64,000 nt of DNA from Candidatus Woesearchaeota archaeon (lineage in GTDB: Archaea; Nanobdellota; Nanobdellia; Woesearchaeales; JACJVW01). The notes beneath the pieces were generated by a model. The model saw nothing but the letters and a program-made list of their open reading frames with translations, made no database searches and had not been told where the DNA came from. This document shows, in pieces, positions 50,744 to 53,482 of the stretch (the stretch's first letter is position 1; each line of letters begins with the position of its first letter). Position numbers and translations under genes: made by a program. The stretch spans positions 4,787-68,786 of the forward strand of contig JACJVW010000003.1 in NCBI GenBank assembly GCA_020637435.1. Reading direction: 5' to 3'.

Positions 50744-51180
50744 AGCCTGGTACACAGACCGAACAAGTTCGTTCTTGCCTTGCTCACTCTCTTCGCAAGG
50801 GATCGTTCGGTTGGCATTGCAATTTCTCCACTATTCTATGTTAAAACTTATAAAGAGATGAACAAGAACTTAGCTATTATGGGCTTGTAGCTCAGCCTGG
50901 TATACAGACCGAACAAGTTCGTTCTTACCTTGCTCATTCCATTCGCAAGGGATCGCTCGGTTGGCATTGCAATTTCTCCACTATTCTATGTTAAAACTTA
51001 TAAAGAGATGAACAAGAACTTAGCTATTATGGGCTTGTAGCTCAGCCTGGTATACAGACCGAACAAGTTCGTTCTTACCTTGCTCACTCTCTTCGCAAGG
51101 GATCGTTCGGTTGGCATTGCAATTTCTCCACTATTCTATGTTAAAACTTATAAAGAGATGAACAAGAACTTAGCTATTAT
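50744..51180 (+). repeat. about 3 x 150-bp tandem repeat of promoter plus tRNA-Ala 5' half with a D-loop hairpin insert
   Basis: GGGCTTGTAG recurs at 50881, 51031 and 51181; the first unit is truncated at 50744. Confidence 0.95.
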
Positions 51181-52811: not shown

Positions 52812-52924
52812 GGGGCTGTAGTGTAGCTTGGACGTAGTAATGCTGCGTATCGCAGCATTGCTAGGGAGCAATATCACTGGCGGTTCGGGGCCGCCCAACC
52901 GGAGTTCGAATCTTCGCAGTCCCA
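52812..52924 (+). tRNA. tRNA-Pro(CGG) with 40-nt D-loop intron (52832-52871)
   Basis: GGGGCTG/CAGTCCC acceptor, GGCGG/CCGCC anticodon stem, CGG at 52886-88; GCTT/GAGC central helix with 3-nt bulges. Confidence 0.88.
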
Positions 52925-53090: not shown

Positions 53091-53243
53091 GGGGCCGTAG
53101 TGTAGCCTGGAGTTGATCACAGCTGTGGTCATCGGGTACCTATCACTGGAGCTCGGGGTTCGTAGCGCAAATGCGCTGTGCTTCCAAGAAAGCACATAAC
53201 GTACGGACAGCTTCTAACCGGAGTTCGAATCTCCGCGGTCCCA
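53091..53243 (+). tRNA. tRNA-Pro(GGG) with D-loop intron (53111-53139) and 50-nt anticodon-loop insertion (53159-53208)
   Basis: GGGGCCG/CGGTCCC acceptor, GGAGC/GCTTC anticodon stem, GGG at 53155-57; position 33 is C. Confidence 0.75.
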
Positions 53244-53482
53244 TATTTCTTCCTCTGGAATCAGCAATAGAACTCCAGAGTTCGAATTGTTGAGGTTTCC
53301 TCAACATAGACACGGTTTTTCCGTGGCGTACTCCCGCGGTCCCATATTTTTTCCTCTGGAATCAGCAATAGAACTCCAGAGTTCGAATTGTTGAGGTTTC
53401 CTCAACATACCTTGTGTTAACAAGGTTCGAGACTTCAGTTGAAGAAGACATGGTTTCTCCGTGGCGTACTCCCGCGGTCCCA
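53244..53482 (+). repeat. two tRNA-Pro 3'-end copies with T-loop hairpin cassettes (101 and 138 bp)
   Basis: Units 53244-53344 and 53345-53482; the second carries extra hairpins. Confidence 0.92.

What the first reader, a model, noticed from the sequence alone, without database searches (positions are those of the whole stretch)
53151..53215. tRNA-Pro(GGG) has C33 and a branched 50-nt anticodon insertion without a clean BHB
Seen: the loop reads T32-C33-GGG-G37, although U33 is nearly invariant. The insert has two hairpins (GCGC/GCGC, TGTGC/GCACA) closed by TTCGTA/TACGGA, follows a GGGGTTCG T-arm-like context, and resembles the T-loop cassettes. Inference: a cassette that landed in the anticodon loop and is either spliced atypically, edited, or inactivates the gene.
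Basis: partly seen in the sequence, partly recalled or inferred. Interest (0 to 1): 0.6.

Follow-up and report, generated by a model that had tools for sequence, protein, structure and literature searches.

The report
Proline tRNA with C33 and intron
This is the working proline tRNA gene (anticodon GGG) of a tiny uncultured archaeon; its "insert" is an ordinary, slightly relaxed splicing intron, and its C in place of the near-universal U33 is a real, recurrent trait of GGG-anticodon proline tRNAs in many archaea and bacteria rather than an error, a landed cassette or a dead gene.

Summary
Window 53091-53243 is the genome's only tRNA-Pro(GGG), in a Woesearchaeales-type archaeon. Removing a 29-nt D-loop intron and the 50-nt insert gives a normal 74-nt tRNA with loop U32-C33-GGG-G37-A38.

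C33 is real: 20 intronless relatives encode it, and 81 of 82 U32-C33 genes have A38 while all 59 U33 genes have U38. The intron base facing 33 follows it (G in 57/61 C33 introns, A in 14/14 U33), as a 37/38 BHB requires. The 3-of-4 central helix is common here (9 of 16 introns imperfect). The insert is unrelated to the T-loop cassettes but related to other Pro(GGG) introns.

Also, 38/61 related introns hold a kink-turn fold that excludes the splice fold; this copy lost it.

The scan already reported C33 in Pro(GGG) in other genomes; I found no paper on it. No RNA data were obtained, so editing is unlikely but untested.

The parts
53091..53243 (+). tRNA-Pro(GGG) gene with two introns; mature length 74 nt
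   Evidence: ARAGORN calls the in-silico spliced product tRNA-Pro(ggg); only real Pro(GGG)-type match in G000
53111..53139 (+). 29-nt D-loop intron at 19/20, relaxed BHB
   Evidence: Sequence; removal restores the D-loop; absent from same-family orthologues
53148..53152 (+). Anticodon stem, 5' strand (27-31)
   Evidence: the identical arm occurs intronless in L257
53153..53158 (+). Anticodon loop positions 32-37: U32, C33 (53154), GGG (53155-53157), G37
   Evidence: C33 in 82 of 141 distinct Pro(GGG) genes collected
53159..53208 (+). 50-nt intron at canonical position 37/38; folds as a three-way junction, with an alternative relaxed BHB fold
   Evidence: ends conserved in relatives
53159..53164 (+). 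Intron 5' arm. Pairs with 53202-53207 in the resting fold; 53161-53163 pairs with 53199-53201 in the splice fold
   Evidence: covariation in relatives
53165..53176 (+). Small hairpin standing where relatives have the 5' strand of a kink-turn
   Evidence: Alignment A1; window copy fails the K-turn test
53176..53197 (+). Apical hairpin homologous to that of the K-turn-type Pro(GGG) intron of G252 (L074)
   Evidence: 19 identities in a 22-column local alignment, z 7.2
53203..53206 (+). 3' strand of the BHB central helix (faces 32-35; G53205 faces C33)
53207..53209 (+). 3' bulge; cut after 53208; A38 = 53209
   Evidence: A38 fixed by 20 intronless C33 genes
53210..53214 (+). Anticodon stem, 3' strand (39-43)

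Best explanation
A functional tRNA-Pro(GGG) gene. The precursor is spliced by the archaeal splicing endonuclease at two relaxed BHB motifs (19/20 and canonical 37/38). At 37/38 the central helix is 32-35 with 53203-53206 (3 pairs plus G.A), and the RNA must slip about 6 nt out of its resting fold to form it. The mature tRNA keeps C33. The loop U32-C33-GGG-G37-A38 is self-complementary (U32-A38, C33-G37); m1G37 made by Trm5 would block the C33-G37 pair and open the loop, and the U32-A38 pair most likely tunes down the very strong GGG anticodon. Shown: sequence, boundaries, conservation, covariation, presence of the endonuclease and a Trm5-family gene. Inferred: splicing itself, the unedited C33, the role of m1G37 and the tuning function.
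For: The spliced product is a normal cloverleaf. Of 141 distinct genes: C33/A38 81, C33/G38 1, U33/U38 59; 20 C33 genes are intronless. The intron base facing 33 is G in 57/61 C33 introns and A in 14/14 U33 introns. At least four families hold both states, and six different anticodon stems occur with both. Imperfect central helices occur in 9 of 16 canonical introns of this genome, six with a mismatch at 35 against A; the 5.7 kcal/mol cost of the splice fold lies within the genome's range of 0.8-8.8 and that of U33 introns, 1.5-7.6. Endonuclease present; Trm5 family present. The unmodified loop folds shut, -7.4 against -3.3 kcal/mol open. A second C33 loop, C32-C33-GGG-G37-C38, occurs in 82 intronless archaeal genes, and the U32/A38 loop in about 64 bacterial genes. 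C33 hardly impairs yeast tRNA-Leu(GAG) (PMC13492127). Watson-Crick 32-38 pairs mark strong-codon tRNAs (PMC5041475).
Against: No RNA evidence. The resting fold hides both splice sites and is the predicted minimum. The single 176-aa endonuclease subunit is colinear with the M. jannaschii alpha4 enzyme and lacks the N. equitans loop insert, the kind of insert linked to relaxed substrates (PMC5829648). RtcB was not found in the 75%-complete assembly. Kin are not independent, so the counts overstate the number of events.
Confidence: 0.8

Rival explanations
1. C33 is edited to U after splicing by an unknown deaminase, as C8 is in Methanopyrus kandleri.
For: U33 is nearly universal (PMC5041475). G000 has two PF00383 deaminases. 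Editing after splicing would leave the intron covariation untouched.
Against: Both deaminases are short stand-alone ORFs (162 and 182 aa). The family is as common in U33 genomes (25/30) as in C33 genomes (47/50) and mixed in size. C33 occurs only with particular 32/38 partners and recurs in bacteria, which suits a structural role in the mature loop. The intron keeps G, not A, opposite 33.
Confidence: 0.07
2. The resting fold is a regulated state. In relatives, L7Ae binds the intron's kink-turn and holds the precursor in the non-splicing fold (a splice switch, or a platform for an intron-dependent modification of the bulged 33-36); this copy keeps a protein-free remnant. This adds to the best explanation rather than replacing it.
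For: 38/61 C33 introns and none of the U33 introns have the K-turn pattern. The unselected closing pair is Watson-Crick in 33/33 (27 G-C, 5 A-U, 1 C-G; 22.9 expected), and pairs private to the splice fold also covary (nominal p about 0.005-0.007). Both folds beat all 500 shuffles on cells paired and covariation score. An L7Ae-family gene is found in 80/80 relatives.
Against: 20 C33 genes have no intron and 23 introns, this one included, fail the K-turn test (a few by small register shifts), so neither is required. The K-turn may form only after excision. The D+5 rule points at the intron's own last base, not at 33 or 34. L7Ae was not found in G000 (incomplete genome).
Confidence: 0.25
3. A T-loop-type cassette inserted into the anticodon loop and inactivated the gene or forces atypical processing.
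For: Both inserts follow TTCG and hold two hairpins; cassettes lie 40 bases downstream.
Against: No significant similarity to six cassettes, except one nominal p of 0.02 that vanishes when the ends are removed. None of the cassette motifs is present. Orthologous introns with the same ends occur across the order. The gene is single-copy and intact. A cut in the T-loop-intron register would leave a 12-nt loop.
Confidence: 0.03
4. The insert is two nested introns: a 16-nt inner one (53183-53198) goes first and creates a 6-bp inner helix for the outer BHB.
For: A perfect 4-bp helix (53177-80/53193-96) flanked by 3-nt stretches; by hand, the product gains a 6-bp helix.
Against: No outer helix and a 1-bp inner helix; a 7-bp hairpin covers the would-be bulge; the same hairpin is a plain apical stem in L074.
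Confidence: 0.05

Closest known systems
Canonical 37/38 archaeal BHB tRNA introns, with relaxed HBh'/hBH/BHL forms (PMC5829648, PMC4090602)
   Same: Position 37/38, 3-nt 3' bulge, central helix with 32-35, endonuclease encoded
   Different: Central helix of 3 pairs plus G35.A; a more stable, covarying alternative fold hides both splice sites
Elongator tRNAs with C33: yeast tRNA-Leu(GAG) (PMC13492127) and Sulfolobales tRNA-Cys(GCA) (PMC7668247)
   Same: Genome-encoded C33 in an elongator tRNA; the yeast one works almost normally
   Different: Here it is tRNA-Pro(GGG), recurrent in archaea and bacteria and tied to fixed 32/38 partners; not found in the papers searched
32-38 Watson-Crick tuning of strong-codon tRNAs, e.g. 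A32-U38 of E. coli tRNA-Pro(GGG) and tRNA-Ala(GGC), U32-A38 of tRNA-Pro(CGG) (PMC5041475, PMC7577736)
   Same: U32-A38 pair beside a G/C-only anticodon, with G37
   Different: Those keep U33; here a C33-G37 pair is also possible
[quoted passage not shown]
   Same: Relatives of this intron carry a K-turn in D'-then-C' orientation
   Different: One K-turn only, no C/D consensus beyond RUGA/GA, no guide aimed at 34 or 39; the window's copy has lost the K-turn
C8-to-U editing in Methanopyrus kandleri (PMC3695527)
   Same: C encoded at a near-invariant U position
   Different: One isoacceptor instead of 30 tRNAs; no matching enzyme tracks the trait

Membership tests
tRNA-Pro(GGG) gene | Cloverleaf with 7-nt anticodon loop, GGG, G37 and A73 after intron removal | tested here: met
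tRNA-Pro(GGG) gene | U33 | tested here: not met
   C33, shared with 82 of 141 related genes and about 150 further intronless genes
tRNA-Pro(GGG) gene | Expressed, spliced and charged | not testable with these tools
Canonical 37/38 BHB intron | Insertion between 37 and 38 | tested here: met
   Intronless orthologues, including the identical arm in L257
Canonical 37/38 BHB intron | 3-nt 3' bulge next to the anticodon stem | tested here: met
   53207-53209
Canonical 37/38 BHB intron (strict) | 4-bp central helix | tested here: not met
   3 of 4 pairs; 9 of 16 introns in this genome are likewise imperfect, so it is filed as relaxed, not strict
Canonical 37/38 BHB intron (strict) | 3-nt 5' bulge closed by an inner helix | tested here: inconclusive
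   U.U mismatch then 3 pairs; 5.7 kcal/mol above the resting fold
Canonical 37/38 BHB intron | Intron 3' end covaries with 32-35 | tested here: met
   C33-G 57/61, U33-A 14/14; position 35 often unpaired
Canonical 37/38 BHB intron | Cleaved by the splicing endonuclease | not testable with these tools
   Enzyme gene present; activity untested
T-loop cassette repeats of this genome | Shared stems and linker, sequence similarity | tested here: not met
   Core z -0.1 to 1.9 against six cassettes
T-loop cassette repeats of this genome | Sits after T-loop 59 in a duplicated tRNA 3' end | tested here: not met
   Sits in the anticodon loop of the intact gene
Intron-borne box C/D guide | K-turn or C/D boxes | tested here: not met
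   Absent in the window copy; K-turn present in 38/61 related introns
Intron-borne box C/D guide | Antisense guide whose D+5 base faces 34 or 39 | tested here: not met
   By inspection of A1 D+5 faces the intron's last base; in this genome's Leu(CAA) intron it does face C34
C-to-U tRNA editing (CDAT8 type) | Dedicated deaminase tracking the trait | tested here: inconclusive
   Two short deaminases in G000; family in 47/50 C33 and 25/30 U33 genomes; genome 75% complete
C-to-U tRNA editing (CDAT8 type) | U in the RNA where DNA has C | not testable with these tools
   No RNA data

The most novel reading that the evidence does not exclude
GGG-anticodon proline tRNAs have repeatedly, in both prokaryotic domains, replaced the U-turn uridine by C as part of two selected loop designs (U32/A38 and C32/C38) that allow a C33-G37 pair, so that m1G37 gates the loop and tunes decoding or +1 frameshifting at CCC/CCU. 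In Woesearchaeales the intron of this tRNA is in addition an L7Ae-controlled switch between a K-turn fold and the splice fold.
Probability: 0.25. Interest if true: 0.7.

Novelty: new variant of a known kind. Interest (0 to 1): 0.42.

Why it matters
U33 is taught as invariant because it makes the anticodon U-turn. A recurrent, isoacceptor-specific exception with fixed 32/38 partners is a natural experiment on what U33 is for and on how the most frameshift-prone anticodon is tamed. It is testable in cultured organisms (Sorangium, Planctomycetes). In practice these genes are missed or mis-called (ARAGORN called this one Arg; Rfam missed it), which feeds false 'missing tRNA' claims for DPANN. The K-turn/BHB double fold, if it is a switch, would be a new way to control archaeal tRNA splicing; this copy is the derived form without it.

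Tried and rejected
Alternative splice registers were rejected by hand: a cut in the T-loop-intron register leaves a 12-nt loop, a register shifted by one leaves 14 nt, and a shift that would read CGG loses position 26 and duplicates the neighbouring Pro(CGG) gene. Nested inner intron: kept only as a weak rival. H/ACA guide reading of the ACA at 53207-53209: geometry inverted and pocket too small. C/D guide in cis or trans: D+5 does not hit 33, 34 or 39. L7Ae presence cannot explain K-turn loss (80/80 relatives have the family; G000's lack is likely incompleteness). The deaminase census gave no signal. My first claim that C33 always goes with A38 was too narrow: a scan without that constraint found C32-C33...C38. 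One search forced U32 and A38, so it shows occurrence in bacteria, not coupling. Nine literature searches found no paper on C33 in tRNA-Pro(GGG) or on K-turns in its intron; Marck and Grosjean's surveys could not be read, so prior notice is not excluded. Searches were argument slips, and crashed after printing the counts used.

Full report
SETTING. The window lies on a 1.13-Mb, 75%-complete assembly. Records that are its kin are labelled Woesearchaeota or Nanoarchaeota, so it is a Woesearchaeales-type DPANN archaeon (inference). Most of its tRNA genes carry introns.

OBSERVATION. The sequence is as described: stem 53148-53152, T32, C33 (53154), GGG, G37, a 50-nt insert (53159-53208), A38 and stem 53210-53214. 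The insert's two hairpins and closing helix form the minimum-energy fold (-24.9 kcal/mol, z -2.85); in it G37 also pairs with the last intron base and U32 with A38. The gene (53091-53243) has a second, 29-nt intron in the D-loop. Removing both gives a 74-nt cloverleaf that ARAGORN calls tRNA-Pro(ggg). It is the only such gene in the assembly. CCC and CCU are roughly half of the proline codons (rough ORF count).

C33 IS REAL AND INHERITED. The three same-family genomes have the same loop. Among 401 genomes of the order, 53 match the C33 pattern and 66 the U33 pattern (a few are chance matches); the backwards controls give 2 and 6 hits. The one genome in both lists has a non-tRNA U33 match. Of 141 distinct genes collected, 81 are C33/A38, 1 is C33/G38 and 59 are U33/U38; 20 C33 genes have no anticodon intron, and one (L257) has the very arm of the spliced product. 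At least four families hold both states, and six anticodon stems occur with both, so positions 33 and 38 appear to have switched together more than once (inference; no tree was built). A scan of all species genomes for C33 without A38 found 82 intronless genes with a second loop, C32-C33-GGG-G37-C38, in Bathyarchaeia, Nitrososphaerales, Nanohaloarchaea, Asgard, Parvarchaeota and other Woesearchaeota, and only 3 with other loops. The U32/A38 loop also occurs in about 64 bacterial genes from Planctomycetota, Myxococcota (complete Sorangium genomes), CPR and others (that pattern forced U32 and A38). In three complete DPANN genomes the C33 gene is the only match to an intronless Pro(GGG) pattern. 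Error and inactivation are thus very unlikely.

THE INSERT IS A 37/38 INTRON. Intronless orthologues fix A38 and hence the boundary. The BHB register pairs 32-35 with 53203-53206: U.G, C-G, G-C and a G35xA mismatch, with the 3' bulge at 53207-53209 and an inner helix of three pairs after a U.U mismatch. The intron base facing 33 is G in 57 of 61 C33 introns and A in all 14 U33 introns, the compensation expected if the precursor is spliced in this register with C at 33. A U.G wobble would also pair, so this makes editing before splicing unlikely rather than impossible. Relaxation is normal here: 9 of the genome's 16 canonical introns have an imperfect central helix, six with a mismatch at 35 against A, and the cost of forcing the splice fold (5.7 kcal/mol) lies inside the genome's range of 0.8-8.8 and that of U33 introns. 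An endonuclease gene is present. It is a single 176-aa subunit colinear with the M. jannaschii alpha4 enzyme and lacks the N. equitans insert. That sits awkwardly with the published link between such inserts and relaxed substrates (PMC5829648); a partner may lie in the missing quarter.

NOT A T-LOOP CASSETTE. Local alignments to six cassettes are at chance level (core z -0.1 to 1.9), whereas a 22-column hairpin matches the Pro(GGG) intron of another family (L074, z 7.2). The TTCG start is explained by pairing: intron positions 2-4 and exon 32-34 compete for one 3' segment, and in L038 and L084 the start changes with that segment.

A FEATURE OF THE INTRON FAMILY. 38 of 61 C33 introns, and none of the U33 introns, fit a kink-turn: a 6-bp stem, tandem GA/GA, a 3-nt bulge ending R-U and a closing pair. 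The closing pair was not a selection criterion and is Watson-Crick in 33 of 33 (27 G-C, 5 A-U, 1 C-G; 22.9 expected). The same RUGA strand is the inner-helix partner in the splice fold, and two pairs private to that fold also covary (nominal p 0.005-0.007; controls show nothing). On alignment A1 the K-turn fold is 96.9% paired and the splice fold 90.2%, both above all shuffles and all slid controls. Kin are not independent and part of the K-turn stem was selected for, so these figures are descriptive. The folds exclude each other. The simplest reading is that the intron refolds after excision into an L7Ae-binding RNA; the bolder one is a protein-gated splice switch. It is not a D+5 guide for base 34, unlike the K-turn intron of this genome's tRNA-Leu(CAA). 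The window's copy has kept the outer stem (with a compensated sixth pair), lost the K-turn, and uses a different three-pair inner helix, which suggests continued selection for the splice fold (inference).

HOW THE MATURE LOOP MAY WORK. U32-C33-GGG-G37-A38 can close by U32-A38 and C33-G37 (-7.4 against -3.3 kcal/mol open). A Trm5-family gene is present, and m1G37 blocks the pairing face of G37 (established chemistry, own knowledge). Watson-Crick 32-38 pairs are typical of strong-codon tRNAs that are 'tuned down' (PMC5041475); m1G37 and the U32-A38 pair are coupled in E. coli tRNA-Pro (PMC7577736); C33 hardly impairs yeast tRNA-Leu(GAG) (PMC13492127). I take C33 as an unedited, tolerated or mildly selected part of a tuned loop.

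NOVELTY. Relaxed 37/38 introns and multi-intron tRNAs are known, and C33 elongator tRNAs are known singly. C33 in tRNA-Pro(GGG) was not found in the papers searched, but this scan has reported it on several other genomes, as it has K-turn introns in other DPANN tRNAs. What is added here is the two-loop pattern across both domains, the 33/intron compensation, and the double fold of the proline intron family. Verdict: new variant of a known kind, interest 0.42.

Noticed in passing
G000 C1:619758-619923 (-), outside the window: tRNA-Leu(CAA) with 32/33 and 37/38 introns; the second has a K-turn-like motif and an antisense stretch whose D+5 base faces C34. It missed my strict K-turn scan.
   Followed up: partly
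window 53244-53482; G000 C1 near 403100 and 619500; window 50744-51180: Tandem copies of tRNA 3' ends with a shared two-hairpin T-loop cassette, and tRNA-Ala 5' halves with a D-loop insert.
   Followed up: partly
window 52812-52924: Neighbouring tRNA-Pro(CGG) with normal U33 and a 40-nt D-loop intron at the same 19/20 site; same-family relatives lack it.
   Followed up: partly
L204:1474-2004 (-): The only splicing endonuclease subunit found (176 aa) lacks the N. equitans-type loop insert although the genome has D-loop and relaxed introns.
   Followed up: partly
L058, L059, L061, L062, L079, L080, L086, L087, L091, L158, L163, L186: A second family of C33 Pro(GGG) introns, about 30 nt, without K-turn, sharing a pyrimidine-rich internal motif; in some the 3' end can extend the central helix through the 5' bulge.
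   Followed up: no
L064, L162, L173: K-turn-type introns with an extra 8-nt 5' segment partly antisense to the anticodon loop.
   Followed up: no
L437, L410 and other Sorangium, Planctomycetota and CPR loci: Bacterial tRNA-Pro(GGG) genes with the same C33 loop, in cultured and completely sequenced strains; whether each is the only Pro(GGG) gene was not settled.
   Followed up: partly
G000 whole assembly: L7Ae family and RtcB not found; fibrillarin and Trm5 found. Probably incompleteness.
   Followed up: no
L131-L203 record titles: Many records titled 'uncultured Methanosarcinales archaeon' are the same contigs as genomes placed in this order (e.g. L156 = G001 C32), so their titles mislead.
   Followed up: no
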